Counted from the first letter of the stretch, positions 2,508-37,500 are shown. The stretch is 37,925 nt of DNA from Rozella allomycis CSF55 (GCA_000442015.1 KE561025.1:1-37925); one strand, 5' to 3'. A program made the numbers and translations. The notes: a model not told the origin generated them from the sequence alone.

Positions 2508-3285
2508 TTATCCTAGAAGTTTTGTCAAAGATTTTGACTTAAATTTGCATAGCATCTTTTCTATTGTACATTTATTGTCATCATTTTCCTCCAATTCTGA
2601 ATTGATAGGAACACCCTTTACTGAGTAGAAAGGGCACTTGCTCGATGCACGCATATTTCCACTTGTTTCACAAAACGTCTGACAGATCTGGTATGGTGGC
2701 GTATATAAATGCAAAGATACACTTAATGTATCAGTATTATTTGATACTCGATGTAAGCCAATTTTGTCTGCTTTAGATGTATAAATGGCAAAATACCATG
2801 TATATAAACAGATTTGTCCTTGCTAAGATCTGTAGATGATACAAGATTCATTGGCTTATTGTCATCTTTCAAAGGCCACTCATATCTCGACTCTGTTAGT
2901 GTTCCCTCCAAAACTTTCATAATGCAATGCGACCCAGAATGATCATGAATTGGACTGTTGATATTAAAAATGCCATTTACCTTTGGGAATTTTTATCCCA
3001 TACTAAAAGAAGTAAATTATAACTTCCATTTCCATCGTCGACTAGGTTTCTTGTATATTTTCCCGGTATTAAATATGCGTATCGATCCCAATCACACCTT
3101 TTCGACTTGTATCCATTCATAATATTTAATAGTTCATTTATATCATCTTCAGAGAGCTCATTTATTCCTCTACTTCCCAACAAATTGGAGATTCGGTCCA
3201 CTAAATTGGGAAATGGATTCCCGTCGTCCATAGATACCAAACTCTGATATACGGATAAGGTTTTATCTTCGCAAACTTTACACAT
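2508..3285 (-). CDS. CDO1: Cysteine dioxygenase type I (3 exons)
   Basis: YTRNLVD, spliced SPIHDHSGSHC, YIHDKIGLHRV and SLHLYTPP motifs. Introns of 26 nt (2955-2980) and about 29 nt. Confidence 0.95.
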
Positions 3286-3393
3286 GAGAGAAATAGATGA
3301 AATTGATGTGGCGGTGCGGTACTACTGGGGAGACCAAAATAATTTTCTATTTTTAAATCATTTATTAAGAATATTATAATAATTATTAATACA

Positions 3394-3940: not shown

Positions 3941-5877
3941 CTAGTAAATATTATGTTTATTGTGCTTATAAAGGCAAATTTGCTTATACCGAAGTTTCTT
4001 TTTACCGTTAAATATATAGAACGACCTGTAGGGAAATTGAGAGGCTGCTGCATCGACTTCAGAGATGCAATTAACAACTGTAAAGTTTTCAGCCAAATCA
4101 TTGGCATTAAATGATGATATTTCGTCAGCATAGGTTCCTTTAGATCCCAATTCAGCCCGCGTTTCAGTTATAAAGAAATCGCAAGATTTTCTTTTACCCT
4201 ACATCATTTTCTAGAAATTATTATACGTATTGATCCAATTCTTCTCTGTTCAAATAATTTACTTTGCCAGAAGTTTCGTTGGTGGCAATAAAATACTTGG
4301 GAAGGAGTCCATGGAATCCTTCTCTAAGAAATACTAAACTGGAGTTATTTTGTAAATAGAAATGGCTTGGGAAGCGATACCTCTAAGTTTAATCAATGAA
4401 TGCTTACCATTCATTAGATAAACAAAGATTGGAAGAGTCAGGTACTAATTCGTACAGTGCTTTTGAATTATCGTAAAAATTTGTAACCGCCAAAATTCTT
4501 GAAGCGGAAAGGATTAAAAACAATACAATAATAATACTTCTAGTCTTTCTAAACAAAGAATTAAATGTTTTAAGCTTCAAATTATGAAAAAGTGCAGATA
4601 GGAAGAAAACAGATGAAGAGCCGTTAAAAGCCAACAAGGGGTATATTACAAATAGAAATCTTTCTTCCTTGTGAGCTTGAATTGAAAAGAATACAAATGC
4701 CCAGTAGAATGGGTACAACTTTAGACGTATAGCCTGATAAATATTTAGTTTCTTGAAAGAAGCGCGAGGTCGACTAATCATTTCAGGCAAAAACTAATTT
4801 CCTTGAAAGAACAAATTTACCGACAGCGGGAATGAGATTATTGCCAGTAGAAAGAAAACGTTAAAATTCAAAAGACAATTGAAAAAATAAAAATAGAAGG
4901 GTGATGTCCCATAGAGTTCCGGTCCTGCTCCTTCTGGCTTAAAAACATTATAAAACATTAAATTAAAAGCAGAAAAGGACCATCTGCCATAATAAGTGGA
5001 ATCTATAAAAACAGACGGCCACTAATTGCAGGAATTGATTCATATTACCACAAAGTAGAATAGAGAGATAAAACCGCAAATAAATGTCTGCTTTATCCTA
5101 TTAAACATCGCCCATTCAAAATCCAGATTGATAGTTAAATCTTTTTCATCAATCTTTTTGTCATTTAAAGTGATGTTATTATCTATTAGAACGCAAGTTG
5201 GGATATATAAAAGAGCAGGAAGAATTATGATCAACGCAAAGGGCCAGGCTACACAAATGCACATCACTGTGCATAGTAAAATCGGATTGAATCTTTGGCG
5301 GAACCAGTACCCGTAAATAAAGAACACAATAATCATCGACATCGTATTCGGTAGTAAAGCTAAGTGAAAATTATGAATCATTTATACCAGTTGAAGATAT
5401 AAAGTTACCCGCTGAAAACGCTAAACAATAAACCAAAGAATTTGCTATTTCTGGATGGATGTAGTTATAAACAGTTTCATAAAAGAAAGATTGCCCAAAA
5501 GCACATAATATTCCTGTAATTATTCTCAGTGCATAGAAAATCCCCATCTTGTTTTTGCTAAATGATTACTTTACTTTTGAAAGTCCAGTGACGGACAAAA
5601 ATGAGCCCACGATTTTGTAAATGCCCAAATACAAATAACTTCGTAATGCAAAATTTGGTGAATACTCCCATGTTTGCATACCCTTTCCAAAAAGCAGGAA
5701 ATGAAGGGGTTCCCAATAGTTGTACACTTCATCACAATCATCCATTGTCGCGAAATATGCGCAAATTATATTCACTATTGTGAAAAACAAAAATGATGAT
5801 TTCAAAATAGCTCGTGGCTTTGTTTTAGGAAGAGTAATCTGCTGAATAAAGTTCAAATACAGTTTAGTCTTGTCCAT
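3941..5877 (-). CDS. ALG9: Alpha-1,2-mannosyltransferase ALG9 (7 exons)
   Basis: DCDEVYNYWEPLH, QTWEYSP.FALRSY, GPELYG, HKEERFLF.IYP and EWYRFPS motifs. Six introns of 27-28 nt. Confidence 0.95.
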
Positions 5878-5921
5878 CACAATTTAGAAATTCTCAAAAA
5901 GGTTAATGGCAAAGATATTTA

Positions 5922-6821: not shown

Positions 6822-8216
6822 TCAATGGGTAAATTTGATGAAAACACTTGGTAGTATTTATTAAACCATTTGTCGTTTGATTTTAACAAGAAACTTTTCT
6901 TCGAAAAGTCTTTTTTTCATTTAATTGTTTTTTTACCTGGCGAAAAGGTGCTATCGTAGAAATCTGTTAAAAAGTTAAATGTAAATTGAAAATATTGCGG
7001 ATGCTGTCTTAGGCATTCTATTATACATTCCAAAAATAAAACGATCAGGCATGCTGCAATTTCTTTAGCGTCCATTTTACGAGACAAGAAATACCAATCC
7101 TCTTCAAGAAGTGTAATAAATCCATTAGGTGTTCTGTAGAACGGATCAAGCAACAACTTTGAAAGAGAAACAACTATGCTGGTTAAATCAAGGCCATTTT
7201 CACAATGAACCAAAATGGAAGAACCTTGCTCGAAAATACTCTTTGCTATAAAATTAGAAGGGCGTAGAATGCTTTGGATATTTTTCAAGAAGCCCCCAGC
7301 ACTTTTATAGTACGAAGAAATTGATATGTCTTCATTGCTAAGACTCTCTAGGAATTTCGCATGCGTTTCGATAATAGTACTTGTGGATTCCAAGTTTGTA
7401 AAAAGCACCTTGTAAACCCAACGTAGATCCATTTACCCTGGATTGATACGCGCTTTCTTGTTCGATATTACCGTATTTCGAGGCATTTGATTTTGTGCGA
7501 AGATCTATTATAATTGTTTCGTTTCCAAGATTGGGAACCTTAAAATGATTGAAGGAGGCTAAAATTTGTTCGTCTTCTGGGCATCGATTTCCTTTGCCAT
7601 TAACCTTTATTTGAGACGATCTTATTAGACATCCCTAGCAATTATATCATCCATGAATATACTTGAGAGTTTGCGCAATAATATGCTAAGATTGGGAAGC
7701 ATCTGTCATTTCTAAAGTGAGCAGAAAACAATAAAATATTATCGGAAACATCTTTGGGTACTATAACATGACTAGGATAAACATTGCAAATCTATCTCAG
7801 AAATTGAATTGGAGGCAACCTTTAGGGCATTATTGTCAAGAATTCTCCATTCACTTTGATTACAAGACCATCTTTTGAAACAACTTGATATAATATTCTT
7901 CGAGTCATCTTTACTCACAGTGTCTTCTACTTCTTTTCGATTCACTAATTCTTCCATTTTGCCAGTTATGATGTTCTTTAAACAACTACAATCGTCTTCA
8001 GATGTGCAATAAATAGAAAATGGTGTCATTGTTTTCAGTTCAAATCTTATTTCTTTTTCACGTTGCTCAATCCTTACAATTTGGTCTAAAAACAACTGTA
8101 TTGATATGGCTAGTGGAAATTACGTGTTTTTCATTGAAAACCAAGGCATCCGGTAGTATATTTAGATCTGATTTTACTGGCTTTAACCTATGAAGTGGAT
8201 TGAAACTGACTAGCAT
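6822..8216 (-). CDS. Myotubularin-related protein, predicted catalytically inactive
   Basis: Spliced ICNVYPSHVIVP, LIRSSQ, LVHCENGLDLT, LLLDPFYRT.GF..L.E.DW and QHPQYFQF motifs. Five introns of 27-28 nt. Gene ends are approximate. Confidence 0.85.
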
Positions 8217-9157: not shown

Positions 9158-11394
9158 TTATTTATACATAGCTTCTTCTAACGTGAGAAATCCTTCGCCT
9201 TTGCACATATTACTCATGGATTCATCTGAACGATCTAACAATCTTCTTAATTCTTCTTCACTTAACACTTGGCGAATATCTCTGTCGCCCTTTTGAATCA
9301 CCAATTTTTCGTTATCTTCAGCAGCCAATATCTGCGCCAATTCACCTAAAGAAGTTTGTTTTGGTCGAAATAGATGATCTCCTTTGAATCTCCCAGATTC
9401 TATCACAACCTTTTCCAACTTTCTTTTTGAACTTGCTGTTTCAATTATGTGGTGCTCAATTGATCTTGCAATGGCAAACCGAAATACTAGTACAGGTTTA
9501 GTTTGACCTATTCTATGCGCTCTATCTTGGGCCTGTAAATCCATTTGAGGATTCCAATCCGAATCGAAAATAATGACTGTATCTGCGCTTGTTAAATTAA
9601 TCCCTAACCCACCTGACCTTGTACTTAATAAGAAAATGCGTTTTGAAGAATCCGGATTATTAAACTCATTTATCTATTTTTTGATTATTTAAAGATTACC
9701 TCAGATTGCCTTTCCTTTTGACTAATTGTGCCATCAATCCTACAAAAATCGAAATTTCGCAAGTTGCAAAATTCTTCCAACAAGTCTAGCATTTTTGTCA
9801 TTTGGGAGAAAATTAGGACTTTATGGCCTTCTTGTTTAAATAACTCTTTCAGAATTTGGTCTAATAGAAGCATTTTCCCAGATGACATCACCAATCGTTC
9901 ATCAATGACTACTTCACCGTTTTCATCTTCAGGAATATCAAACAAATAAGGATGATCACATATTTTACGCAATTGAACGATTCTGTTTTGAAGCTTTAAG
10001 TTTTTAACTTCTAAAAGTGACGATAAAGGATTTCTTTTACTCTTGTCTAAAATCGGTTCATTTTCTTTGGATTCATCATCAGAAATAATTAAATGTTGCT
10101 GATTTTGGAAATATTCAAAATGAAGAAAACATATTTTTTTTACCTACATGAGACATTCTTCCTCTCTTTCGCCTCTTGTTTGGCTTGGCCTCTGAATCAT
10201 TGTCTCCAAAGTAGAGTTCTATGTCTAAAATATCATTTTCTGGTTTATCTCTTTCAGATTGAATCAATTCTCTCAAATCTTTATTCAAAATTGCATCATA
10301 ATATTCCTTTTGCTTCATTGTCATTGGGGCCAAAACTAAATATTCTTTCTTCTTTGGCATTTCTACCTCAACTTTAAAAATTTCTAAAATTTTGAATTTA
10401 CCATCAGATTTTAGGCGCCTCAGAAGAAATGGCTTTAAAACGGAATGAAGTTTGGAAACAATTGAATTTTCTTCCTCTTGAGAAATAATTTCTTCGTTTT
10501 CTTTATTTTCAAAATCAAACCTATAAAATACCAAAAGATAGAAATACCAAGACTGAAAAGATTGCAAATCATTGAAAACATCAGGCAACAAAAAGTTTAA
10601 CAAACTCCAAAGTTCTGACAAGTTATTTTGAAGTGGGGTTCCAGTAATTAACAAACGGTTATCAGAGTTTAGAGACTTCAATTCTCGAAACAATTTACAT
10701 TTATAATTCTTTAATCTGTGCCCTTCATCCACCACGAGATATTTCCAGACAGTTTTTTGCAAATATTTTCTATCATTCATTGCTATATCATATGACGTTA
10801 TAACCACTGGACAAGCCTTTTTCTTTTTCTCAAATCGTTTTCTTAGTTGGTTTCTTTCTCCTATATCTCCATGATAAACACATGTTGGAATAGTTGGTGC
10901 AAATCTGATTTAAACATATTGATTTTCTTACTTTTTAAATTCAGCTTCCCAATTGGCTATTGTTGATAATGGTGCAACTATTAAAAACGGACTTTAAAAT
11001 ATAACGATTAGTTTTTACCCTTTGACACCCTTTTCCCATAGGTATGCAATTAAAGAAATTGTTTGAATAGTTTTCCCAAGTCCCTTTAAACTTGATAAGA
11101 GTATTTTACCATCTCATCCGCAAGAATTCCATTTAATGCATTTTCCCACAATGAAATTAACCATTGCACACCCTTTATTTGATAATCTCTCAAAGTTCCT
11201 GCGAAAATACTGGGCTGTGAAAATTCTTCTCTTTCTTTAGAATCACTGCCGTCGGTATTCTATGCATATATGAAAAAAGATATGATAACCTTTTCTAAAA
11301 TGTCAGCTAAGAATTTAGAATATATCGAAGAACGTTCAATAACTACATTTAATGTCTCAAGCTTGCTCTTTTCATTTTCGCCGTCGACTGACAT
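9158..11394 (-). CDS. HELLS: SNF2-family chromatin remodeller HELLS/LSH/DDM1/IRC5 (9 exons)
   Basis: N-terminal [59 protein letters not shown] and [17 protein letters not shown] motifs. Confidence 0.92.
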
Positions 11395-11555: not shown

Positions 11556-12263
11556 ATGAGTTCTACTACAGCACCACCGCCTGTCAATCGACGCAATAAA
11601 CCCAATATAAATGTCATCAAAGCGAATAAAAATTATAAGCCAATAAATGCCGGAGAGTTAGAGATTTATGAAGGAGATATTCTTTGTGTAATAGATAACA
11701 GCAGTAATCAGCAATACTGGACATGTAAATGCGGTTCAAATATTGGTCTTGTTCCTGTATCTTATAGTAAAATGACTTGTTTTTGAAAATTAAAGTGCAC
11801 GAAGAGGCAGAAATGATTGAAAATCCTATGCATGAAGCCGCAAAGAGATGCAATTTTGAATTGGTAGAGGACTATATCAATATTGGCTTGTCTGTAAATG
11901 CATTAGACAAAAGTGGGTGTACCCCACTTCATTGGGCGTGTAGGTCCGGTTACAAAGATATCGTACAACTTTTGTTGTCTAATGGCTGTTTGCCAAACAC
12001 ACAAGTAAAAATTATAATACCATGTTAAGTTGAATAAAATGGGTGATACTCCTCTCCACTTGGCATCATATGGCGGTCATTCTGAAATTGCAAAGATCCT
12101 ATTACAATGTACCGACATTAATACAGAAACTCTAAACAATGAAGGAAAAACAGCTTTAGAGCTCGCGAAAAATGATTCTGTCGGGGCCATTATTCAAAAG
12201 CATGTAATGTCATTTAACCGTGAAGATTTAAATGAAAATGAGGAGCAATCAGACTTTGATTAA
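11556..12263 (+). CDS. OSTF1: Osteoclast-stimulating factor 1 homologue (Pro-rich, SH3, ankyrin repeats, acidic tail)
   Basis: PPP N-terminus, SH3 (EL...EGDIL..W..GLVP.SY), ENPMHEAAKR, VNALDKSGCTPLHWAC, NKMGDTPLH and a C-terminal EEQSD. Two introns. Confidence 0.88.
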
Positions 12264-12269: not shown

Positions 12270-13005
12270 TTATTTGCGTTTCCAGATTCCCAATTTCTCT
12301 TTGCCTTTTCTTTTCTCAAAGCTTTCGCAGTCTGTAAGACTTATCAAGACAAAATTCTCTTCAAGTAGTTGCTTGTAACTATAAAATAAATTCCCTTTAG
12401 TTTTACATTTCAATTGATAACGAGAATGGCGGACCACCTTCGTGATCAGACAAGGGATACATCAGCGTTACAAGTAACCCACTGGGTTTAATTAAAGAAC
12501 CCATTCTGGAAGCCCATTGATTTCTAAAACTCGGATCTAACGCACATAGAAATGTGTAATCAAAAACTACGTCAGCAGGATTTGGCAAGGAAAGTTCAAA
12601 AAAGTCGGCGGCAATAAATTCCAGTTCATTATTCGAAATAGCCAACGAATTTTGCCTCTAATTAGTATCGTTATATAATATTTCTACTTTTCTATTTTCC
12701 TCTATTATTGGTTCGTACAAATCAATGCCATAAATTTTTCGCTTCCCGTTTACCAGTTCAAAGCAATCCAAGGCCAATGAAATAAATAATTAATTATTAC
12801 TTGACCGCATCCTGGAACAACAAAAGTACCACTCTCGGGAAGGACATTTTGCTTTAAAAGGTCTATCAATGCAGGTGCCGCACTTGACATGTTCCATGGT
12901 GTTATTTGATTATCCCACATTACCTTCCAGGCTGAATAAAGTCAATGACGTATCATTACCTTCTTTAGGGCCATGTTTATCATGAATTTCTTTAATGCTA
13001 CTCAT
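12270..13005 (-). CDS. TPMT-family thiol/halide methyltransferase (HOL1-like; 5 exons)
   Basis: W...W...TPW, VVPGCG, ADFF, FDYTFLCAL.P..R..WA and GGPPF motifs. Confidence 0.9.
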
Positions 13006-24544: not shown

Positions 24545-25720
24545 TTAAACCATTTTCTTTAGTTTTCTTTGGGTCTGGGATATTTTCAAGCCAGTTTTAT
24601 CCACGCCAATTTCCAAATTAGACAGCATTTTGTTTTGAATATCTTTTATCAAACAATTAAATTACTTACCTAATTCTTGGCCAATGCTTGATCCGATTTC
24701 CTTTTGTTTTTGAACGATACTGAGCAATTGGTCCAGGTTTTCATCTTGTTTAACCATCATTTGTCTTTGTAATTGAACTAGCCCGCTGTCATCGTAATTT
24801 TTTGTTTCATTGGTTTCCTGCGCAACTCCAAATACTCTTCTCGGACTTGCACTAGTGGCTGAAAAGGCAACTTTTGACTGGATTCCATCAAATGTCGGTG
24901 GAATAGGTTTGGTATGAAGTACAATTTTTCCAAGCTTTTCTATTTCATAATTTAACTCGTGAAGTTTGTCTTGTCTTCTAGATAGTTCATCTTTTGTTCT
25001 AGTAAAGGTTTCTTCGTAATGTTACATGTTTGCATCGGTAGAGTCAAGACTTTTCTTCAATTGATCAACTTTCACTGTTACTTCAGTGAATAGTGATTTG
25101 GCCTGAGATGTTAATGCGTACGCTTCAGACACATTTTCTCCAATTTTATCTCTCTCTGGAATATTAAAATCGACAATGGGTTACTAAAAAGAAGTTGTCG
25201 GATATCCACTATACTTCTCTCTAATTTTCTGAATTCAGTGATCCAGTTTCCATGAGAAATCGAAGAGTTTAGTTCTATCTTGACAATTAATAAGATTCAT
25301 TACGAATACCCTATGATCTGGAATGTTGAAGAATTCTTTCACAATTCTATTAAACCAAAAATCTTCGTGAAAAGGCCCGTAGGTTTTTAAAAGGCCATCA
25401 CAATATGCTTCTAATTTGACCCTTCGCTCCATCAATGTTTGAGTTGATGGCTTCAACAAAGTTTTTCGTGGAAGCTCTCTAGGTATATGATACCCCATCT
25501 CTTTTATCTGTGAAATTTGAAGATAATGTGTACTTGAGAATCAAACGTAACAAAATCACTGAATCGACGTAATACCACCCAGTTTCGCAAGCTTGAGGAA
25601 ATGTTGATTTCAAATGCCTAAAAATCACTTAATTATTGTACTTACAGTGTATGTTTTCTCATTTTCATGAATCTCTTGATATTTGGGTATGATTATCGAC
25701 TCCACTATCGGTTGCCGCAT
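24545..25720 (-). CDS. VAM7: Vam7-like PX-domain Qc-SNARE (7 exons)
   Basis: PX domain (VLRRFSDF, LPRK, MERRVKLEAY), RRVFG..QET and a SNARE motif (QDENLDQL...QKEIG..IGQEL..QN). No transmembrane segment. Confidence 0.9.
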
Positions 25721-25950: not shown

Positions 25951-27427
25951 CTATGTTTTGTTGGAACTTTTAATAATTTTGCCAAGTCTCAACAAAGCTG
26001 TATCGATCTCTTCTTCCGTCGCTGTAGAAAAGGCCGCCCTTAGGAAGGGTGATTTATCGCCATGTGGCATAAATTCCTATCACTTGAGTATTAGTTTTTT
26101 ACACGACCGGGTATGAATATTACCTTTTCTTGAATAGCCTTTTCTTTGACCAAGCTCTCACTGTCGACTATTCCTAGAATTTTCATCCATATGAACATCC
26201 CTTTATGTGTTTAAAAGTTGCTTGTACCACATTTCGGTTCATTGAAACTGACTAGATTACCTAAATGCCTCCTTGATGCCTCCAGAAAGAGGTTCTTTTT
26301 GGATTCATAATATTGACTCGTTTGTTTGCAATGATCAAGAAAACCATTATGACCCCAAGTTTTAAGTAGTTTCAGCAAAATTGATTGAGATATTCCGCAA
26401 GGATGAATATTAGAGCACTATAGACAATTTTTATCTTCCTTGGTTACTTCTTCATGTAATATTATTCTGTCTATCAATGCTTTTGGCCCCGACGCAAACC
26501 CAATTCTTGCCCCGGCAGACAAAATTTTGCTGAAAGAGTCAAAACGCAGTACCCGACCTGATTGATCAAGTGAGAAATAGCTTGGTATAAGATTGTTGTA
26601 GTTATACTATTAATACAACGCCATGAATAATACTTGTAGGTAATAGTAGGGATCATCTTCTATAATCAAAAAATCATACTCCTCTGCAAGTTTTAGCACT
26701 TCCAGCCTCTGTTGTAAATTTGTGGAGCAACCAGTTGGATTTCCGCCATTGGGTACTGTATAGAGTATCTTGGGCCTTCTTTGACTCGCATCCCAATTTG
26801 ATAGTTTCTCTTTAAGTGCATTAGGACAAATACCGTTCTTGTTTGTGTGAATTTCTATATTCACATAAACTTTATTCCTTTACCAACCATTCTACAACCT
26901 ATTGGTCTCAAGACAGCGAGAGTGCCGCTATAGGTCGGAGTTTCTAACAATACCGAGTCTTCGGAGGTCAAAAACATTTCAAAAGCCTATTAAAAGTGAT
27001 TTTACATATTGCCTTTGAAACTCCATCTTGACTTCCATTTGTCACACACATAGACCAATCATCTGATTTAGGCCGATGAAGTTGATTTTGAAGTTCACGG
27101 AGCCATTCTAAAAGCTCCATGTATCCCGCCAGAAAGGAATCAAAAGAATATTTTTACCGTGTTGGAATATTGTAATGCTCTCTTTGTTTCTGTTCTGTCT
27201 AGCTTTATGGTTTCCCCACTCTTTAAACTGAAAGATATCGAATCAATTGGGAACTTATTAGGATCCGGACTCCCTCCTCCCAGAGAAATCTGCGGAAAGA
27301 ACTCTTAATCGCTTACCATGCCTGGAATAAGGAGTAATGGTTGCAGTGCACGTATTGCGGATGGTTGCCTAAGTTTGGCAACGGAGTTTAAATATTTTGA
27401 ATAGTCGATCTTTCTTGAGATCATCAT
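25951..27427 (-). CDS. Class I PLP aminotransferase, ARO8/AADAT (aromatic/2-aminoadipate/kynurenine) type (9 exons)
   Basis: RQPSAIRAL, ISLGGG.P, ALQYS, NGSQDG, YTVPNGGNPTG, IEDDPYY, RFDSFSKILSAG.RIG and GMFIW motifs. Confidence 0.95.
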
Positions 27428-28457: not shown

Positions 28458-30457
28458 TTAAATATTGAGATTAACCACGACTTTTTTCTTCTTTGGCCTA
28501 TTAAAATGACTTAAATTCTCCTCTGGCTCTGTTGCAGTAAATTTAGATGTTAGTTCTTCTACTTCATTCGACTTTGACGTTTGTTGCAAAATGTCTAAAT
28601 TGATTAAGTTGCTATTAATGTTCGCATTATATTCTGAGTTTAGATATGAAGGCATGTCGAACATATTTTCGAGACTTAGCTGTTTCTTAATTGAATAGAT
28701 GAAGAATTGGGTAACCCAGTCACATGCTCGACTAAAATTCTTTTCCAGAGAAATAAGTATCAAGCTTTGAGTTTCGGAATCAATTTTCATGGATATTTTG
28801 GAGTAGACTTTTAAAGCATACAAGACTCCCTCCGTTTTCTTGATTGCTAAGCATGAAAATATGAAATCAACGGGATCTGCTAAATTCTCGTGATTAAATG
28901 AAAGAAACGACATCATATACTCTAATATGATGAAATTTTTTTCATTGCCAGAAATAATCAATGGACTATTTCGAATAACACTTATCTAAATCAAAATTTA
29001 ATTAATGATTTATACAAAAAGATTAATGTAATATTCAATATTGGAATAATCAATCATGCTCATCACAGATGATATCTTTTCTTTGATTTCAGACCCTAAA
29101 AGCATGTCTTGTAAAGAAACCGATGAAAAATTACCTTTGATCTCTGCTAGTTTGCATAAAGTAAAAATTTTGAATTTATCGTCGTGAATAAAATCCAAAA
29201 GAGACAAAATTTGGCGTCCGATTTGATTTGTTGTCGATGGACTTTGACCGTCCAACTTTTGCATAAAATGTTCGATGATTGTTTTTGAATTTGAAGGGTT
29301 GGAAACATAATAAATTAAATCAATTGCCATTAGTTTAATTGTTTCATCTTCATGATTCGTCAATTCAATGAGCCTGTGGAAAACTTTCATTTCTGAAGAG
29401 ACCAATCCTTTGTCATGTACAAATAACAATTTAAAATTTAGCAAACCAACGTAGATAAGGTTTGTATCATGATCAGAAATGAATTGCTCCAGTTTACGAA
29501 TAGAAACCTTGATTATCTTTGGGTCTGCAATACCAATTTTGAACACTGTTGCAATACATTCCACAACTAAAGAAACTGAAGCATGGTTGCAGATTAAATT
29601 TGTCAAGGGCTCTTCCAATTTCTTTATTAATCTTGTCTCTAATTTTGATAGCTTAGTAAGCTCTATAGAATAAACCATCTTTTTACTATTTTCATAATCT
29701 TTATTAATGCCCAACTTGGAGTTTGATTATCAATCAGGAAACTGAATAAAACGGGTACCATTGTCATGAAATGACTAGGTTTAACATCAACAAGTTCGCA
29801 AATTGTGTTTATCAAATTAATAATACCTTTCAATCATCAAAAAGCAAACATTATACCATTTTTCTCCTTGACTTTCTCTTTCAATGTCGGTAAAATTTGT
29901 TCTATCAATTGTTCATCTTCTTTGATTAAATAATACAATGCAGCTATGGCTTTTTTTCTTATTGTAAATTTTGTGTGGTTGAGCAATGAACAAACTTGTG
30001 AAACTATTTCAGTTATTATGTTGCGGTCTGCCCATGAACACACAGCATTGAGGGCCAACGACACTTCATTAGCATTTCCTGCTAAATCTTTTCGCAATAA
30101 ATTAACGGCCAAAATTAATATGTTTTGATTGCCGTAGAAACTTCTTTCAGATGCTATATATCCTTGTTTCTTAATCTGAAGATTGCAATGACTCATAACT
30201 TGAATTATGTCAAATAATGCCCAATCTAAATTGTAAAATTCTATCATTCGTAACTATTAATCTGCATTGATAAACCTTACATATGCAATCTTTAGAACAG
30301 CTGTTGCTTTAGTAGAAGTGTCAGTGCTCTTCAATTCGTTTCTTATTTCTTCGAATGACTTTTCAATATAAGCCCTCTCATATTCTTTATCTTTATTTAA
30401 CCTGAGTCCCCTAATTAACTCATTTAGATCTTTTTGAAATAATGCTGAGACTTTCAT
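28458..30457 (-). CDS. APL5: AP-3 complex delta subunit, divergent and short (5 exons)
   Basis: LFQKDLNELIRGLR, IRNELKS.D...KATAVLKIAY, W.LIKI.K, LETRLIKKL.EPL and FISD.D.NL.YVGL motifs. Confidence 0.9.
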
Positions 30458-31593: not shown

Positions 31594-34500
31594 ATGAGCA
31601 ACTTGACCTTAAAAATCAACTACCCTGAATCCAACATAACCAAAGCCCTCCAAGTACTACACTTGAAGTAAATTCACACAGTTTCCATCTGATTATTTTG
31701 TCAACGATTGCATCAAGGAGATCAAGGAGAAATTCAACGAAACCGATCTGAGCAATGATTACGGACTATACTGTGTTGGCCAGAAGAAATGGCTTGTAAA
31801 CAACAGGACACTAGCGTTTTATGATTTGAAAAATGGTGATATTTTAGAGTTTAAAAAGAAGCACCGGCCGATGCGCGTCAAGATGCTTGACAGCACACTC
31901 AAGACTGTATTGATTGATGAATCCTGCACTGTTAGCGAGCTTGTAAAGATTGTATGCAACAAGATTGGTAATCGCGTATAATTGGTTGTGTCTAGGGATA
32001 ACAGCATTTGAAGAATACTCATTCTGTGTTGAACTATCTAACGACGAAAGATCGACGCGCCAGAAGCACGAAAAATACGAGAGAAAAGAATACAGTAAAA
32101 AGGTATTTACGATTTGACAGCTAAATGGCTGAGCCCTGAAAAGACGCTTCGCGAGCAGCTGGTGCAAGATGCGGATGTGATAATCCTCAAGCGCAAGTTT
32201 TTCTTTTCTGACCAGAACATTGACCGGAACGATCCTATCCAGCTGAACTTGCTGTTTGTGCAATCCAAGGAGAGTGTGATTTCTGGCGAGTACCCATGTA
32301 GCGAGGAGGAGGCTGTGCAATTGGCGGCGTTGCAGGTGCAGGCAGTGTTTGGCAACTATGATGGTGATAAATGCAAGCCTGGGTTTCTCGAGTACGCATG
32401 ATGGTTGTTTCTTTCTAGGTTGAAGGACTATTTGCCCGAGGTGTATCGCCGAAAAGAGGTTGAAAAGAAGATTTATGGCGAGTATAAAAAGATATGCGGG
32501 ATGTCCGAGCTGAATGCAAAGTACCGGTATGTGCAGCAGTGCCGGTTGCTGCGAACGTATGGGGTGACGTTTTTCCAGGTCAAGGAGAAGCTGGCGAAGA
32601 AGACAAAGTTTACGCCTGCGTTGATGGGGGTTACAAAGGAGAATATACTGAGGGTTGATATCGAGAGCCGGGAGATATTGCAGGTGTGGCCGTTGACTAG
32701 TTTGAAAAGATGGGCTGCGACGCCTACGAGGTAAGAGATGGGATTTGTGTGGATTGTAGTTTTACGTTGGATTTTGGGGACTATGATGCGTGTTACCAGG
32801 TGGAGACACATGATGGGGAGGATATTTCACAGTTGATTGGGGGATATATTGATATGATTATTAGAAAGAAGAGGGAGAATGATAAGACTGGGGAGCTTGA
32901 AGGAGAGGAAATGGCAATGTATGAAGAGACGATAGAGATTGCGCAACCGTCTAGAGCTACGAATAACAATAGTTCGAGTGTGAAGAGACGAGCGGATGAA
33001 AAGGATGTTGCTGGAATTGCAAGTTTAGAAAATAGTGAAATGAAGTATTCGTCTTTGTCGATTTCAAAGGCTAAGCATAATTTGAAGTTTGTGAGTAATG
33101 AAGAAGAAAATAAGGGAATGGTTGAAGGAATTAATAAACAAGCATTGCAGTTGTTTATAGAGGATCAAATTAAGAGATGTGAAGAAGAGGAAGAAAATCT
33201 TTTAAAATTAGTTGATGAGGATATTTCTGAATTTGTGACTGAAGAATGGAAAGAGAGTGTGTATAAACTAAAGATGCATGAACTGGAGTATCGAATAAGC
33301 AATCAAATTGAATCAGTTTGTGGAATTTTAAATGAACTGAATCTAATGGAGCCGAATTATGAGACATTGAAGAATCAGATAGAGAGTATTTGTGATGAAT
33401 CATTGTTTAAGAGTATTGAAGCCAAAGTTGGTGTTGAAAAAGAATTTAGCCAAACTTTTGGTAATCTTTTAAATAGCACGAAAATATTTTTGAAAGAGAT
33501 TGAAGAGAATTTGAATGGAAAAAGTAATGGAGAGCAATTAAGGTTGGTGGCTGATGAGATTGGAGGGTTGAGTAGAGAATTAATATTAAAGAGAGAAGAG
33601 GAAATAGAATTTGGAGCGATTAATGAGATGATGGAGATGTTTGATAAAAGTTGTGAAAGGATGGAGAATAAAACGCCTGATTCTGGTAGAAAGGCAGAGA
33701 TTAAAGGAATAGCTAGTTTGTTGAAAGAGAGTGTTGAGAATTTTAAAACAATTTTGAATGTTTCAAGGGGATTTAATGAAAAGGAAGGAATTAAGAAGAG
33801 AGTTGAAGAGGGAATTGTTTTAGTTAACGATGGGATTGATTGTTGTTTGGAGAGGAATGTGATGAATAAAGAAACTTCAAATAGTTTAACAAGGGTCATA
33901 AATGATTTAACTTTAACAGAATCTACTAGTGAATCTATTGGTGAATCAAAGAAAGCATTAAAGAGAGGATCTAATGTTGAAGATGAAAATGAGAAAAGAT
34001 TGAAAATAAAATTGAATGAAATTTATGCATTGAGTAATCAAATTGGCACTTCAAATGATAAGAACTTTATCTACTTGTTGAAAGAGAAAACAATAAACTT
34101 TTCCAATGAATTGAAAGCATTTGGAATTGAAAAGGATGTATTTGAAAGAAACAGAATAAACTTTGTTTGTAAAAAGATTAATGAATTAATTGAAGAAATT
34201 GATGAAAAAGATTTTAGTAAATTTCAGAAACAATTTTCAAATTTGTTAATTTTTAATAAAGAAAAAGATTTGGTAAATTTGGTTGAAAAAATGATTGAAA
34301 ATATTCAAATTAATAAAAGAGATTTGAATGATTTTGAAAAAGTTTGTTTAATTAAAATGATAGAGTATGTTAAAGATGAAAATGTTGATGGGATTTTAAA
34401 AGAAAAGAATAATTTTATTGAAAATTTTAAAGATGAAAAAGATTTGAATAAAGATTTGAAATTGTTTGAAGAAATTTGTGAATTGATTGAGAATAATCAA

Positions 34501-37500
34501 AGTTTAGAATTAATTTTAGAAAACATTAAAAGTTTAGCAGAAAATAATAAATTGTTAAAGGGAGAGAGTAAATCGTTAAAGGGAGATAGTAAATCTTTAA
34601 ATAAAATAATTCTGAATCTTTGGAATTCACTCAACAATGCATCATCCACTATTTCCACTTCTACATCCACTATTGCTACTTCTACATCTGCTATCAATCC
34701 TTCAATGTCTAATTCTTCTTCTCCATCAGAAATATTTAATAGTTTGGTTCTGTTAAATCAAATAAAACCAAATAAAGAATTAAATATTTCAGTTTTAAAA
34801 TTTGTTAAACAAGGGGTATTTGAAAAAGAAAAGATTGAAAATATTCTTTTAAATTTAGCAGAAAAGAATTCAGAGAATTTAGTAGTTGACCAAGTTTTAA
34901 ATGAAATCGATGCTTTGAATGTAGATTTAAACATTCAAGGGAATGAACAAGTAAATGAAAAGAATAAATTGTCAACGTTGATTTTAAAATTTAATTATTC
35001 ATTAGAAAATTTCAAAGAAGAATTCATCAATGTTTCCAAGGCATCAACTAAGGCATCAAATGAGCAATCAACTTCTAATTTTACTACTAATTCAACTGAA
35101 CAATCGAATGATTTGAATGCATTGAGTTTAAGCGCTTCTTCTCTTGTAAACAATTTAATAAATTTAAACAACATAAATTTAAATGATTCTAATTATAAAA
35201 ATAGATTGATTAAATTGAAAGATAAATTGTTGATAGAATTTACAGATCTGAATAACCCTTTAAAACAAAAATCAAATCTAAATTTAGATTATGAAATTTC
35301 AGAAATTGTTAAATTTTCTAATTCAAATGAAATTGATTCTTGTTTAATAAAGAATGAAAAATTATTAAAAGAAACTTTGAATAATAATATTGCCACTATG
35401 AATAAATCATTTAAAGATCTATTAAATGAGATTATTAATCAAATACAGACTTTAAGTGAGACTGGAGTTGAAACCGCAATTGAAACTAGTACTAATTCAA
35501 CTATTACTATTTCTTGGCTTTCAAATGGTTTGTATTTCTTGAATGAAAATGTTAAAAATTTGGTTTACTTGATTGGAGTTTCAGATAAAGATTCAATTAA
35601 AGCCACAATAGATCCAAATTTAATAAATTTGAATGAAAATATTTTATTTTTGAAAAGATTAAATTTCTATGAAAATCCATTTAATAAAATTAAAGAAATA
35701 GCAAAACCAATCTCATCTATTTGTGAATTTCTCAAATTAGATTTAAAGAATAAGAATTATTTAAAATCAATTTCAACTACAACATCCAATTTGATTAAAA
35801 GGGTTATGAGTGATTCTTCAAATTCTTCAAATAAACAAATTTCATTACAGACAAAATCTCTTTATGAATTTCTATTAAATGAATTGGAAGATTTGAAATT
35901 AAATTTAAAAGAAAATTCAACCAAAGCAATTTTTAGTCCAAATTCAATTTTAAAGCAACAATCTTTAATTGATCATTTTCAGTCTATTATAATTTCTTTT
36001 AATGATTTATTAAACAATCAAAGGAAGGGATTAAATGAAATTAATGTTTCAGATCTTTTAGTTTTATTAAATGATTTGCCAAATGTTATTATTTCTTCTA
36101 TCAATAAAGAATATTCTGATTCTATTTCAATCATCAATCAAAGTTCCAATAGAAACAATGAAAGGAACATTGAAACTAGTTCCAATAAAAGTACTAATAG
36201 AAGTAGCAATGGAAGTTCAAATAGAAGTAGTAATAGAAACTCTATCAATTCTTCTTTCAAGTCCAACAATTTAAACACTTCAACTCTTTGTTCACTAATA
36301 CATGAAATTGATCCATCAAATAATATTTCATTTCTTTCCATTGCTCAACCTTTGACTGAACTAATTAATTCAAATTCTAATGATGTTGTAAATTCTAATG
36401 ATGTTTTAAATAATTCATTGTCTTTTCTTAATGAATGGTATCAATTTCTATTAAATCCAACATTTGATATTTCTCAATTCAATCAATCAAGAGAATTATT
36501 AATAAATTCAATTCAATCTATTCAATCTGAATTAAATAACATGCAAAATGTCGATATTATTCAATTAATCAACAATGCAGACTCTCTCAATTCTTCGCGT
36601 GATACTCAATTTACGCTTGATAAAGTTGAAGATTTAATTAATAAATTCTCTCAATTGTTTACTTGTGAGAATCAAACAGCTCAACTCTCTTCCATTAAAT
36701 CTTCTTACATTAATCTATTCAACGCTTCAAATTCAAATACAAAATTATCTGAAATTGTTAAAGAAATTGGTTATTCTTTATCAAGTGTTATGAATTCATT
36801 AAAAGATAAAAGAAAATTATCAAAATTAGTTTCTGAAATTTCACAAAATTTAGTTGAATTAAAAACTTCAATTATTGAATCTGAAAGCGATCCAACTAGA
36901 ATAAATAATCAAAATAATCAAAATGAAAATGGTAAATTTATTTGTTTATTGTAAGTAGAATTAATTGATGAATTATCCAACGCCATTTTAGATCTTGAAA
37001 CGTTACTAGTTTTTGCCAAAGCAAATCAATTGCAAGTTTTAAACACAAATTTTGATTCTTCTCATTTAATTGAAGAAATTCAAATAAAATCTGAAATTAT
37101 TTTTGAAAATTTAAATTCAAATCTTTCTGAAGATTCATTAGTGAAAATTATTCAAACTTCAATTGAATTGAAAAATATTTTTAAAAAATTTGTTTTAAAT
37201 CTTCAAAATCAAAAATTTCAAATTCAATCTTTAAATCTATTTTTAATCTTTTTAAAATCTTTAGACTCTTCAATAGAATCCTCTTCTGCTCATCTTGGAG
37301 AATTTATTCAATTTTTGCAATTGAAATTAAATGAATCAGAAAATTCGATTGAAAATTTATTGTTTGAAATTCAAAATGAAATACAAAATGGCTTAAATTT
37401 TCTCTTTTCAGATTCAATTCTAGATGGATTTTGTACCCCTGAAGATTTATGCAAAAAAGCTAAAATTTTCACTTCAATTTCTGCCAATCTAATAAATTTA

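What the first reader, a model, noticed from the sequence alone, without database searches (positions are those of the whole stretch)
2955..36958. Ruler-like splicing: about 70 introns confined to 26-31 nt, with too-proximal AGs skipped
Seen (manual count): every intron I could place is 26-31 nt, mostly GTA donors, usually with no clear CTAAC branch point or pyrimidine tract. In ALG9 (4381-4407) TAG at 25 nt would create TGA, while GAG at 27 nt restores EWYRFPS. In AP-3 delta (29661-29686) TAG at 24 nt frameshifts, while GAG at 26 nt restores the motif. In PFK intron 2, TAG at 24 nt is bypassed for AAG at 30 nt. RPL16 also uses GAG. Inference: a hard minimum of about 26 nt and distance-based acceptor selection, which would explain tolerance of GAG and YTG ends. 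Tiny introns are established in microsporidia, ciliates and nucleomorphs, but here they are also abundant.
Basis: partly seen in the sequence, partly recalled or inferred. Interest (0 to 1): 0.75.

Follow-up and report, generated by a model that had tools for sequence, protein, structure and literature searches.

The report
Ruler-length tiny introns in Rozella
This stretch of a Rozella allomycis chromosome carries about 70 real introns that are all 26 to 31 bases long, with a likely branch adenosine fixed 23 bases from the intron start, which shows how a spliceosome can work at its minimum size.

Summary
The window encodes proteins identical to annotated Rozella allomycis CSF55 proteins, a fungus-related parasite and sister lineage of microsporidia. 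I curated 68 introns in 16 genes. All are 26-31 nt (26:15, 27:20, 28:16, 29:8, 30:7, 31:2). Donors are GTA in 65 of 68. Every intron is forced by a frameshift or an in-frame stop.

A gene parse with no length prior already peaks at 26-31 (27 of 63). A fifth, in the myotubularin gene, is added.

New findings:
- An A sits at position +23 from the 5' end in 52 of 68 introns, against 31% in decoys. No such peak appears when introns are aligned at the 3' end.
- Skipped AGs at 24/25 touch that A.
- Two homology-proven TG acceptors and one GC donor keep the 26-28 nt length.

No RNA data could be obtained. Ultra-short, ruler-like introns are known in ciliates, nucleomorphs, dicyemids and myxozoans. 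For Rozella I found only a passing remark.

The parts
2955..2980 (-). CDO intron 1, 26 nt, GTA..CAG
   Evidence: Pfam CDO_I coordinates gapless across the junction; frameshift if retained
2771..2796 (-). CDO intron 2, 26 nt (AAG), or 29 nt ending at 2768 (CAG)
   Evidence: Frameshift-forced. Pfam is gapless for the 29-nt version and one extra residue for the 26-nt version. Annotation P0125 uses 26.
5548..5574 (-). ALG9 intron 1, 27 nt
   Evidence: In-frame stop; Pfam continuity within 1 residue
5360..5387 (-). ALG9 intron 2, 28 nt
   Evidence: Pfam Glyco_transf_22 gapless, 129 to 131 with one split codon
5022..5048 (-). ALG9 intron 3, 27 nt (alternative donor 5051 gives 30 nt)
   Evidence: In-frame stop; both versions lie in 26-31
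4794..4820 (-). ALG9 intron 4, 27 nt
   Evidence: In-frame stop
4381..4407 (-). ALG9 intron 5, 27 nt, GAG acceptor; TAG at 25 skipped
   Evidence: The 25-nt version makes TGA. The 27-nt version gives EWYRFPS, as in P0123.
4199..4226 (-). ALG9 intron 6, 28 nt
   Evidence: Frameshift-forced; no canonical alternative within 30 nt
8096..8123 (-). Myotubularin-like intron 1, 28 nt
   Evidence: Frameshift-forced; no homology check
7792..7819 (-). Myotubularin-like intron 2, 28 nt, GTT donor; GAG at 24 skipped
   Evidence: The 24-nt version runs into a stop after 8 codons. The next exon starts at Pfam position 52 with its residue 1. No alternative.
7635..7662 (-). Myotubularin-like intron 3, 28 nt
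   Evidence: Pfam Myotub-related gapless across the junction
7409..7436 (-). Myotubularin-like intron 4, 28 nt
   Evidence: Pfam continuity within 1 residue
6910..6936 (-). Myotubularin-like intron 5, 27 nt
   Evidence: In-frame stop, no alternative; last exon has no Pfam hit
11260..11289 (-). SNF2 helicase intron 1, 30 nt, GTT donor
   Evidence: In-frame stop, no alternative
11084..11109 (-). SNF2 helicase intron 2, 26 nt
   Evidence: Pfam SNF2-rel_dom 26 to 27, gapless
10992..11018 (-). SNF2 helicase intron 3, 27 nt
   Evidence: In-frame stop
10905..10931 (-). SNF2 helicase intron 4, 27 nt
   Evidence: In-frame stop, no alternative
10116..10143 (-). SNF2 helicase intron 5: 28 nt GT..TTG, or 49 nt GT..AG from donor 10147
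   Evidence: Undecided; it lies in an unconserved linker. This is the only place where an intron longer than 31 nt remains a live option.
9674..9699 (-). SNF2 helicase intron 6, 26 nt
   Evidence: Pfam Helicase_C 56 to 58 with one residue between, gapless
12932..12959 (-). TPMT intron 1, 28 nt
   Evidence: Gapless alignment to P0133 across the junction
12775..12800 (-). TPMT intron 2, 26 nt, GT..TTG (non-AG acceptor)
   Evidence: The TG model scores best against 97 of 104 homologues, with 4 ties. Alignment to P0133 is gapless. No AG alternative lies within 30 nt.
12658..12687 (-). TPMT intron 3, 30 nt; TACTAAT with branch A at +26
   Evidence: In-frame stop, no alternative
12379..12406 (-). 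TPMT intron 4, 28 nt
   Evidence: Gapless alignment to P0133
15689..15715 (-). RPL13a/L16 intron, 27 nt, GAG acceptor
   Evidence: In-frame stops. The only start codon lies in the 5-codon first exon.
18082..18108 (-). PFK intron 1, 27 nt
   Evidence: Same as annotated protein P0001
17984..18013 (-). PFK intron 2, 30 nt AAG; TAG at 24 skipped
   Evidence: The 30-nt version is better against 118 of 119 homologues. The W..V.(5)GGT spacing occurs in 110 of 110 motif hits. Annotation P0001 uses 24.
17445..17473 (-). PFK intron 3, 29 nt
   Evidence: As P0001
17227..17255 (-). PFK intron 4, 29 nt
   Evidence: As P0001
17075..17100 (-). PFK intron 5, 26 nt
   Evidence: As P0001
16905..16933 (-). PFK intron 6, 29 nt
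   Evidence: As P0001
16471..16501 (-). PFK intron 7, 31 nt; contains TACTAAC with its branch A at +23
   Evidence: As P0001; sequence
19156..19184 (-). Unnamed gene (19841-18951) intron 1, 29 nt
   Evidence: Frameshift-forced, no alternative; no homology
19049..19076 (-). Unnamed gene intron 2, 28 nt
   Evidence: Frameshift-forced; no homology
23972..23997 (-). Cgr1-like intron 1, 26 nt
   Evidence: Frameshift-forced
23729..23754 (-). Cgr1-like intron 2, 26 nt
   Evidence: Frameshift-forced
25618..25645 (-). PX/SNARE (Vam7-like) intron 1, 28 nt
   Evidence: Frameshift-forced
25508..25533 (-). Vam7-like intron 2, 26 nt
   Evidence: Frameshift-forced
25279..25309 (-). Vam7-like intron 3: 31 nt, or 25 nt from donor 25303, same acceptor
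   Evidence: Undecided; the two differ by two residues in an unconserved linker
25156..25184 (-). Vam7-like intron 4, 29 nt
   Evidence: Frameshift-forced; a 23-nt alternative exists
24999..25025 (-). Vam7-like intron 5, 27 nt
   Evidence: In-frame stop
24643..24669 (-). Vam7-like intron 6, 27 nt
   Evidence: In-frame stop, no alternative
27290..27316 (-). AADAT/Aro8-like intron 1, 27 nt
   Evidence: In-frame stop. Exon 2 aligns from its residue 1 to chain 2qlr_A residue 34.
27130..27157 (-). AADAT-like intron 2, 28 nt, GT..CTG (non-AG acceptor); the next AG would give 43 nt
   Evidence: Numbering in 2qlr_A is gapless. Exon 2 reaches residue 77 and exon 3 starts at 78.
26987..27012 (-). AADAT-like intron 3, 26 nt, GC..AG donor
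   Evidence: Exon 3 ends at 2qlr_A residue 123 and exon 4 starts at 124
26855..26883 (-). AADAT-like intron 4, 29 nt (alternative 26895, 26 nt)
   Evidence: Exon 4 aligns to 2qlr_A through residue 33 of 34, which favours the 29-nt version
26607..26633 (-). AADAT-like intron 5, 27 nt
   Evidence: In-frame stop
26418..26447 (-). AADAT-like intron 6, 30 nt
   Evidence: In-frame stop, no alternative
26201..26227 (-). AADAT-like intron 7, 27 nt
   Evidence: In-frame stop
26077..26102 (-). AADAT-like intron 8, 26 nt
   Evidence: Frameshift-forced
30254..30280 (-). AP-3 delta intron 1, 27 nt
   Evidence: In-frame stop
29827..29856 (-). AP-3 delta intron 2, 30 nt
   Evidence: In-frame stops, no alternative
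29661..29686 (-). AP-3 delta intron 3, 26 nt, GAG acceptor; TAG at 24 skipped
   Evidence: The 24-nt version stays in a frame that stops after 7 codons. Pfam Adaptin_N starts at residue 1 of the next exon.
28986..29015 (-). AP-3 delta intron 4, 30 nt
   Evidence: In-frame stop, no alternative
11767..11795 (+). SH3-ankyrin gene intron 1, 29 nt
   Evidence: Frameshift-forced
12005..12032 (+). SH3-ankyrin gene intron 2: 28 nt GT..TTG, or 25 nt GT..AAG
   Evidence: Undecided; the two differ by one residue in an ankyrin loop
13322..13348 (+). PP2A-A intron 1, 27 nt
   Evidence: In-frame stop
13501..13526 (+). PP2A-A intron 2, 26 nt
   Evidence: Frameshift-forced
13776..13802 (+). PP2A-A intron 3, 27 nt
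   Evidence: In-frame stop
13884..13910 (+). PP2A-A intron 4, 27 nt
   Evidence: In-frame stop
14458..14483 (+). PP2A-A intron 5, 26 nt
   Evidence: Frameshift-forced
20091..20120 (+). Rad52 intron 1, 30 nt
   Evidence: In-frame stop; Pfam continuity within 2 residues
20202..20229 (+). Rad52 intron 2, 28 nt
   Evidence: Pfam Rad52_Rad22 gapless, no alternative
31654..31681 (+). Talin intron 1, 28 nt
   Evidence: Frameshift-forced, no alternative. Exon 2 starts at FERM_f0 position 18 after a 20-residue exon 1.
31968..31995 (+). Talin intron 2, 28 nt
   Evidence: Frameshift-forced
32095..32120 (+). Talin intron 3, 26 nt
   Evidence: Frameshift-forced
32392..32418 (+). Talin intron 4, 27 nt
   Evidence: In-frame stop
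32731..32759 (+). Talin intron 5, 29 nt
   Evidence: Pfam IRS/PTB coordinates gapless across the junction; no alternative
36932..36958 (+). Talin intron 6: 27 nt TAG, or 24 nt AAG
   Evidence: Undecided; both are in frame and the region is low-complexity

Best explanation
These are ordinary U2-type spliceosomal introns of Rozella allomycis that have shrunk to the smallest size its spliceosome can handle. Geometry therefore does most of the site selection.

Proposed mechanism:
- The 5' site is reduced to G|GTA(A).
- The branch adenosine sits about 23 nt from the intron start, with only a weak yUnAy-like context.
- The second step uses the first AG that lies at least 3 nt beyond that A, which puts the 3' end at position 26 to 31.
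- An AG ending at 24 contains the branch A itself, and one ending at 25 starts one base after it. Neither can reach the active site, so both are passed over.
- If no AG lies in the 26-31 window, a YTG in the window is used rather than a distant AG.
- There is no polypyrimidine tract.

Shown here: the lengths, the forced reading frames, the skipped AGs, the TG and GC ends, and the positional A.

Inferred: that A+23 is the branch point, that selection is steric, and that the introns are efficiently spliced.
For: - Identity: a PFK exon is 100% identical to a protein named as Rozella allomycis CSF55. P0121's longest contig has the window's length.
- Lengths: all 68 curated introns are 26-31 nt, and all are forced by frameshift (41) or in-frame stop (27).
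- Unambiguous subsets: the 16 introns with no canonical alternative within 30 nt are all 26-30 nt. The 43 with no alternative of 31 nt or less are all 26-31 nt.
- A prior-free parse peaks at 26-31.
- A at +23: 52 of 68, against an interior A frequency of 34.5% (binomial 1.9e-12). It is 15 of 15 in 26-nt introns and 8 of 8 in 29-nt introns. The strongest interior A when aligned at the 3' end is 35 of 68. Decoys show 66 of 210.
- Branch consensus: PFK intron 7 carries TACTAAC with its branch A exactly at +23. TACTAAC-like sites (5 or more of 7 matches) put the A at 23 or 24 in 7 curated introns, against 2 of 210 decoys.
- Skipped AGs: ALG9 (25), AP-3 delta (24), myotubularin (24) and PFK (24). 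There are no internal AGs at or beyond 26.
- TG acceptors and the GC donor keep 26-28 nt.
- Pyrimidine content at positions 7-20 is 53%, against 48.5% in decoys.
- Precedents: in Stentor the putative branch A sits 5 nt from the 3' end (PMC9505925, passages read). In myxobolids and Dicyema, weakly conserved As move away from the AG as introns lengthen (PMC13644364, whole text read).
Against: - No RNA or lariat data. No RNA run holding this sequence was listed, so splicing itself, its efficiency and the branch site are untested.
- 16 of 68 introns lack A at +23. One is the best-proven TG intron (27130-27157), whose last A is at +18.
- The branch consensus is weak. Only 8 curated introns have a TACTAAC-like site in the 3' half.
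- CDO intron 2 may use the CAG at 29 instead of the AAG at 26 (Pfam is gapless for 29), which would break 'first AG'.
- SNF2 intron 5 may be 49 nt. Vam7-like intron 3 and SH3-ankyrin intron 2 may be 25 nt.
- In-frame introns without a stop would be invisible to my method.
- The sample is one 38-kb window.
- Two public annotations choose differently at some sites. P0001 uses 24 nt in PFK, and P0121 uses introns of 105-148 nt.
Confidence: 0.65

Rival explanations
1. A pure 5'-anchored ruler. The 3' site is measured directly from the 5' splice site by the spliceosome, for example by a fixed path length through the complex. The A at +23 is not the branch point but part of 3'-site recognition or a by-product, and the real branch lies further upstream.
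For: - The intron with the best-proven TG end has no A after +18 yet is 28 nt.
- Total length is more tightly constrained than any motif.
- The A+23 context is weak.
Against: - TACTAAC in PFK intron 7 and TACAAC/TGTAAC-like sites place the canonical branch A exactly at +23.
- AGs ending at 24 are skipped, as expected if A23 is consumed in step one.
- Stentor offers a precedent for very short distances from branch to 3' end (PMC9505925, passages read).
Confidence: 0.12
2. The sharp 26-31 window is partly a curation artefact. Real splicing also uses 24/25-nt and longer introns, and some public gene models (PFK 24 nt; 105-148-nt introns in P0121) are right.
For: - 19 of 68 introns have frame-compatible alternatives shorter than 26 nt, and 45 of 68 have alternatives longer than 31 nt.
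- I resolved three ambiguous cases towards 26-31.
- CDO intron 2 is uncertain.
- The annotations differ at some sites.
Against: - The prior-free parse peaks at 26-31.
- The unambiguous subsets lie entirely in 26-31.
- The short alternatives are scattered over 8-25 nt without a peak.
- The long introns in P0121 delete residues that match Pfam Glyco_transf_22.
- PFK homologues reject the 24-nt version, 118 to 0 with 1 tie.
- The A+23 signal, which I did not use in curation, would not arise from wrong introns.
Confidence: 0.1
3. The TG acceptors and the GC donor are assembly or amplification errors, or allelic variants, in this contig. The true genome would have AG and GT there.
For: - The contig belongs to an assembly whose locus tags read ROZALSC1.
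- Only one sequence was available for these sites.
- A second allele or copy with 98% identity exists for CDO, so sequence variation is present.
Against: - Three independent homology-proven non-canonical ends in 68 introns would each need an error hitting exactly a splice dinucleotide.
- Two further candidate TTG ends lie at the expected distance.
Confidence: 0.08

Closest known systems
Ultra-short introns of myxobolid myxozoans and Dicyema (Hadjez et al. 2026, PMC13644364, whole text read; Zverkov et al. 2019, PMC6543705, passages; Lu et al. 2019, PMC6736024, passages)
   Same: - The median is about 27 nt (Henneguya and Dicyema sp. 27; here the median is 27-28).
- Intron density is high.
- The 5' site is reduced to GTa and the 3' site to AG.
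- There is no polypyrimidine tract.
- Weakly conserved As lie further from the AG the longer the intron is, so they are fixed relative to the 5' end.
   Different: - The lineage is different: Holomycota, not animals.
- Here the positional A is a single sharp position (+23, 76%).
- The window is 26-31 nt with no shorter introns seen, whereas T. kitauei has a median of 22.
- TG acceptors and skipped proximal AGs were not reported in the text I read.
Microsporidian short introns, e.g. Encephalitozoon cuniculi (as described in Whelan et al. 2019, PMC6349667, passages read)
   Same: - It is the sister lineage of Rozella.
- Introns are tiny.
- That paper notes in passing two putative introns of about 30 nt in Rozella S23 that lack the microsporidian 5' and branch motifs.
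   Different: - Microsporidia have very few introns. Here there are 2.76 per kb of CDS, and PMC8476143 gives 2.5 per kb for Rozella.
- Per that paper, microsporidian introns have conserved motifs and mostly low splicing levels.
- Neither motifs nor efficiency could be shown here.
Stentor coeruleus 15-16-nt introns (PMC9505925, passages read)
   Same: - The length is fixed like a ruler.
- The donor is GUA.
- The branch consensus is weak, but a positionally fixed A lies a few nt from the 3' AG.
   Different: - In Stentor the A moves with the length (position 10 in 15-nt and 11 in 16-nt introns), so it is fixed to the 3' end.
- Here it is fixed to the 5' end, and the distance to the 3' end varies from 3 to 8 nt.
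AG scanning and exclusion of AGs too close to the branch point in yeast and mammals; TG as a rare alternative 3' splice site in mammals (recalled from the literature, not read here)
   Same: - The first suitable AG downstream of the branch is used.
- AGs within a few nt of the branch are sterically unusable.
- TG can replace AG.
   Different: - Here the permitted window is only about 6 nt wide and starts 3 nt after the putative branch A.
- TG seems to be used in place of a distant AG, not beside a near one.

Membership tests
U2-type (major) spliceosomal introns | GT (rarely GC) at the 5' end | tested here: met
   GT in 67 of 68, GC in 1 of 68
U2-type (major) spliceosomal introns | AG at the 3' end | tested here: met
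   AG in 64 of 68. Four end in YTG, two of them proven by homology.
U2-type (major) spliceosomal introns | Branch adenosine upstream of the 3' site that pairs with U2 | tested here: inconclusive
   A at +23 in 52 of 68. A few TACTAAC-like sites are centred there. No lariat data and no U2 sequence were available, as no genome is held.
U2-type (major) spliceosomal introns | Polypyrimidine tract | tested here: not met
   Pyrimidines are 53% against 48.5% in decoys. No position-specific T/C enrichment near the 3' end.
U2-type (major) spliceosomal introns | Removal from RNA, restoring the reading frame | not testable with these tools
   Frame and homology are restored in silico for all 68. No RNA holder was listed and the one run laid gave nothing usable.
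Ultra-short-intron regime (ciliates, nucleomorphs, dicyemids, myxobolids) | Median length at or under about 30 nt with a narrow distribution | tested here: met
   26-31 nt, mode 27; the prior-free parse peaks there
Ultra-short-intron regime (ciliates, nucleomorphs, dicyemids, myxobolids) | Splice signals reduced to GTA and AG | tested here: met
   Information content falls to near zero after +4 and before -2
Ultra-short-intron regime (ciliates, nucleomorphs, dicyemids, myxobolids) | High intron density | tested here: met
   2.76 introns per kb of CDS in the 16 intron-bearing genes. Six neighbouring genes have none.
Microsporidian-type introns | Very few introns, concentrated at 5' ends of ribosomal protein genes, with extended conserved 5' and branch motifs | tested here: not met
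   68 introns spread through 16 genes of all kinds. No extended motifs.
U12-type (minor) introns | Extended 5' consensus (GTATCCTT or ATATCCTT) and a strong branch site | tested here: not met
   None of the 68 starts with GTATCC or AT

The most novel reading that the evidence does not exclude
Rozella's spliceosome picks the 3' splice site mainly by position rather than by sequence. Anchored at a branch A held 23 nt from the 5' site, it ligates at whatever acceptable purine-ending dinucleotide (AG, else YTG) lies 3-8 nt further on. It does this without a polypyrimidine tract or conventional U2AF-type 3'-site definition. On this reading Rozella is a natural, intron-rich 'minimal-geometry' spliceosome, one step before the spliceosome decay seen in microsporidia.
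Probability: 0.35. Interest if true: 0.75.

Novelty: new member of a known kind. Interest (0 to 1): 0.6.

Why it matters
- The lower size limit of spliceosomal introns, and what sets it, is an open question. The 2026 survey I read (PMC13644364) lists ciliates, microsporidia, dicyemids and myxozoans as the lineages with introns shorter than 30 bp. It does not mention Rozella.
- An intron-rich relative of the intron-poor microsporidia with a 26-31-nt window, a positional branch A and tolerated TG ends would give a clean natural system. It could separate geometric from sequence constraints on splice-site choice.
- It would also show what the microsporidian ancestor's introns may have looked like.
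- Practically, public gene models for this organism appear mis-spliced where pipelines expect AG ends or longer introns. P0121 fuses three genes. P0001 probably carries a two-residue insertion. AG-only models would lose conserved residues in the AADAT-like and TPMT genes.

Tried and rejected
- **First guess, a dicyemid or myxozoan** (animal-like gene set). Rejected by the 100% match to a Rozella allomycis protein.
- **RNA evidence.** No RNA holder was listed. The one run offered, X1, gave only 6 short pieces with loose ends and no usable joint.
- **Unavailable sources.** No whole genome is held. The Rozella genome paper (Curr Biol 2013) is not held, so I could not check whether it states an intron length. 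Supplements of PMC13644364 were closed.
- **GT-AG-only dynamic-programming gene parses**.
  - They merged genes through long false 'introns'.
  - They produced 43, 47 and 59-104-nt introns at places where homology later showed 26-28-nt introns with TG or GC ends.
  - They also produced a 49-nt intron at SNF2 10147, where a 28-nt TTG reading is possible but remains undecided.
  - The self-trained parse over-called in-frame 27/30-nt introns inside exons (10547, 10401, 4694, 26785, 20154). I rejected 4694, 26785 and 20154 because they remove residues matched by homologues or Pfam, and I excluded 10547 and 10401 because they are not forced by a stop or frameshift.
- **TPMT exon 3 alone** found nothing in PDB or Pfam. 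The question was settled with 104 homologues instead.
- **The CDO homologue search** returned only the organism's own protein, so 26 versus 29 nt stays open.
- **Rfam and tRNA scans of the window** found nothing, so no snRNA is available here.
- **Literature searches for a description of Rozella intron length** found only a passing remark in PMC6349667 and an intron density in PMC8476143.

Full report
**What the window is**

The window is AT-rich (GC about 34%) and reads in the standard code. Pfam scans of all stop-to-stop frames show these genes:
- an MSS51/zf-MYND gene
- cysteine dioxygenase (CDO)
- ALG9
- a myotubularin-like gene
- an SNF2 helicase
- an SH3-ankyrin gene
- TPMT
- PP2A-A
- RPL13a/L16
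- a double-domain PFK
- Rad52
- an RAI16-like gene
- Cgr1 and Rpr2
- an aminotransferase
- AP-3 delta
- talin

I first suspected a dicyemid or myxozoan, which are known for 22-27-nt introns (PMC13644364, whole text read). That was wrong. A PFK exon is 100% identical to a protein named '6-phosphofructokinase type C, partial [Rozella allomycis CSF55]'. The ALG9 exon hits 'ROZALSC1DRAFT_29775 [Rozella allomycis CSF55]', whose longest contig is 37,925 bases, the length of this window.

**Is the length peak real?**

- A dynamic-programming gene parse allowed any GT-AG intron of 12-150 nt at a constant penalty, with no length prior. It put 27 of 63 introns at 26-31 nt (26:7, 27:10, 28:3, 29:2, 30:4, 31:1). 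No other length exceeded 3 (iteration 0). Even spreading would give about 2.7 in a six-base window (my arithmetic).
- When the acceptor was restricted to 'the first AG at or beyond T from the donor', the total parse score was flat for T=20-26 and fell sharply from T=28.

**Curated set**

I went through each gene with frame maps and checked that every model runs from ATG to stop. This gave 68 introns in 16 genes.
- Lengths: 26:15, 27:20, 28:16, 29:8, 30:7, 31:2.
- Density: 2.76 introns per kb of CDS, close to the 2.5 per kb published for Rozella (PMC8476143, passages read).
- Donors: GTA 65, GTT 2, GCA 1.
- Acceptors: TAG 34, AAG 18, CAG 9, GAG 3, TTG 3, CTG 1.
- GC content of the introns: 26%.
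- All 68 are forced: 41 would shift the frame and 27 carry an in-frame stop.

Six neighbouring genes have no intron, including the 2.1-kb RAI16-like gene and the 1.25-kb MSS51-like gene.

My first and last introns (2955-2980 and 36932-36958) coincide with the span given in the finding.

**Homology checks of junctions**

Exon-by-exon Pfam coordinates are gapless across these junctions:
- CDO intron 1
- ALG9 intron 2
- myotubularin intron 3
- SNF2 introns 2 and 6
- Rad52 intron 2
- talin intron 5 (together)

They are within one or two residues at several more junctions. The annotated PFK protein P0001 maps exactly with seven introns of 27, 24, 29, 29, 26, 29 and 31 nt.

**Ambiguity, stated plainly**

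- 16 introns have no other frame-compatible GT-AG pair within 30 nt.
- 19 have an alternative shorter than 26 nt. These are scattered over 8-25 nt.
- 7 have another alternative in 26-31.
- 45 have one longer than 31.

The 16 unambiguous introns are all 26-30 nt. The 43 without any alternative of 31 nt or less are all 26-31 nt.

These sites remain undecided:
- Vam7-like 25279-25309 (31 or 25 nt)
- SH3-ankyrin 12005 (28 nt TTG or 25 nt AAG)
- talin 36932 (27 or 24 nt)
- SNF2 10143 (28 nt TTG or 49 nt AG)
- CDO 2796 (26 nt AAG or 29 nt CAG)

For CDO 2796, Pfam is gapless for 29, while annotation P0125 uses 26.

**The named cases**

- **ALG9, 4381-4407.** The TAG at 25 joins to give TGA. The GAG at 27 gives EWYRFPS, which matches the Pilobolus homologue P0123 and is close to P0124.
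- **AP-3 delta, 29661-29686.** The TAG at 24 keeps a frame that stops after seven codons. After the GAG at 26, the Adaptin_N match begins at residue 1 of the exon.
- **PFK intron 2.** Both the 24-nt and 30-nt versions are in frame. The 30-nt version scores higher against 118 of 119 homologues, with 1 tie. The spacing W..V.(5)GGT is found in 110 of 110 motif hits; the 24-nt version gives 7. The public model P0001 therefore probably carries a two-residue insertion.
- **RPL13a/L16, 15689-15715.** It ends in GAG and is forced, because the only start codon lies in a five-codon first exon.
- **A further case, myotubularin 7792-7819.** It skips a GAG at 24, which would run into a stop after eight codons. 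It uses the TAG at 28, after which the Pfam match starts at residue 1.

**Non-canonical ends**

GT-AG-only parsing gave 43- and 47-nt introns in the AADAT/Aro8-like gene. Homology shows otherwise.
- Exon 2 aligns to chain 2qlr_A residues 34-75 with two residues left over.
- Exon 3 aligns end to end with residues 78-123.
- Exon 4 aligns from residue 124.

The introns are therefore 27130-27157 (28 nt, GT..CTG) and 26987-27012 (26 nt, GC..AG).

In TPMT, a 26-nt GT..TTG intron (12775-12800) gives a model that scores best against 97 of 104 homologues, with 4 ties; an AG-based model is best against 3. Its alignment to P0133 is gapless.

So when no AG lies at 26-31, a TG inside the window is used rather than an AG 15-30 nt further on. 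This is the strongest evidence for an upper bound as well as a lower one.

**A positional adenosine**

- Aligned at the 5' end, position +23 is A in 52 of 68 introns. Interior A frequency is 34.5% (binomial 1.9e-12), and this is the only informative interior column.
- By length class: 15 of 15 for 26-nt introns, 13 of 20 for 27, 10 of 16 for 28, 8 of 8 for 29, 4 of 7 for 30, and 2 of 2 for 31.
- Aligned at the 3' end there is no such column. The strongest interior A is 35 of 68 at -4.
- Decoys were 210 non-curated GTA sites whose first AG at or beyond 26 lies at 26-31. They have A at +23 in 31%.
- Only 210 of 763 non-curated GTA sites have an AG in that window at all, against 64 of 68 curated donors.
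- I did not use this A in curation, so it also validates the set.
- PFK intron 7 contains TACTAAC with its branch A at +23. Sites matching TACTAAC in 5 or more of 7 positions put the A at 23 or 24 in 7 curated introns, against 2 of 210 decoys.
- Internal AGs occur up to position 20. There are none at 21-23, four at 24, two at 25 and none at or beyond 26. In all four cases at 24, the A of that AG is A+23 itself.

**Reading**

The simplest account is conventional U2-type splicing at minimal geometry:
- The branch A sits about 23 nt from the 5' site.
- Exon ligation occurs at the first AG at least 3 nt beyond it.
- The fallback is YTG.
- There is no polypyrimidine tract (53% pyrimidines against 48.5% in decoys).

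The rule 'first AG at or beyond 26' reproduces 64 of 68 curated acceptors, and the four misses are the TG ends. It reproduces 59 at T=24 and 50 at T=27. This test is partly circular for the three ambiguous in-frame cases.

Very short distances from branch to 3' end have a precedent in Stentor, where the A is at position 10 of 15 (PMC9505925, passages read). As that stay fixed relative to the 5' end were noted for myxobolids and Dicyema (PMC13644364).

**What is not shown**

- No RNA run holding this sequence was listed. The one run laid gave nothing usable.
- No genome is held. Genome-wide statistics, snRNAs and the splicing-factor inventory could therefore not be examined.
- Splicing efficiency and the branch site are inferred.

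**Literature**

My searches found, for Rozella, only two things. One is a remark that its S23 gene has two putative introns of about 30 nt lacking conserved motifs (PMC6349667, passages). The other is an intron density (PMC8476143). The Rozella genome paper of 2013 is not held and may state an intron length.

The phenomenon as such is known in other lineages: ultra-short introns, a narrow length range and reduced signals. I therefore file this as a new, under-recognised member of a known kind. It has three useful particulars: the sharp +23 A, the demonstrable skipping of adjacent AGs, and TG ends used inside the length window.

Noticed in passing
window 3397-6605, minus strand: The public protein P0121 (851 aa) fuses three genes: an acidic secreted protein (6605-5922), ALG9 (5877-3941) and a small membrane protein (3825-3397). 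It uses introns of 105-148 nt that delete residues matching Pfam Glyco_transf_22, plus an 18-nt intron.
   Followed up: yes
window 17984-18013, minus strand: The public PFK model P0001 uses the 24-nt version of intron 2. That inserts two residues absent from 110 of 110 homologue motif hits.
   Followed up: yes
window 8400-9100, minus strand: An uncurated gene without Pfam hits lies between the SNF2 and myotubularin genes. It has further candidate tiny introns: 9050-9078 (29 nt, GTT donor, A at +23), 8604-8631 and 8413-8440 (28 nt each), and 8714-8741 (28 nt with TACTAAT).
   Followed up: partly
window 6755-8216, minus strand: In the spliced translation, the myotubularin-like protein has Cys but no Arg in the place of the Cys-X5-Arg phosphatase loop. 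It may be a catalytically dead family member.
   Followed up: no
window 2508-3285, minus strand: The public CDO protein P0125 is 98% identical to the window's CDO, not 100%, and is recorded on a 27,481-base contig. A second allele or copy therefore exists.
   Followed up: no
window 27430-28458 and 30500-31590: These are two stretches of about 1 kb. In the first, frame maps show no long ORF on either strand. Neither stretch has a Pfam or Rfam hit or a tRNA, which is unusually long spacing for this dense window.
   Followed up: partly
window 32761-36930, plus strand: The talin rod region is a single 4.2-kb exon, rich in Asn/Ser/Glu low-complexity sequence. Its first 2 kb show a strong GC skew (0.45). 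Intron-rich and intron-free genes sit side by side: the RAI16-like gene (21523-23619) and the MSS51-like gene (67-1314) have no introns.
   Followed up: no
window 1715-1969, minus strand: A weak match to the hAT transposase dimerisation domain (E 0.00097, below the Pfam cut-off) may be a transposon remnant.
   Followed up: no
all 68 curated introns: Intron phase is skewed: phase 0 has 40, phase 1 has 19 and phase 2 has 9. All 27 introns whose length is a multiple of three carry an in-frame stop, but my method could not have seen ones without a stop.
   Followed up: partly
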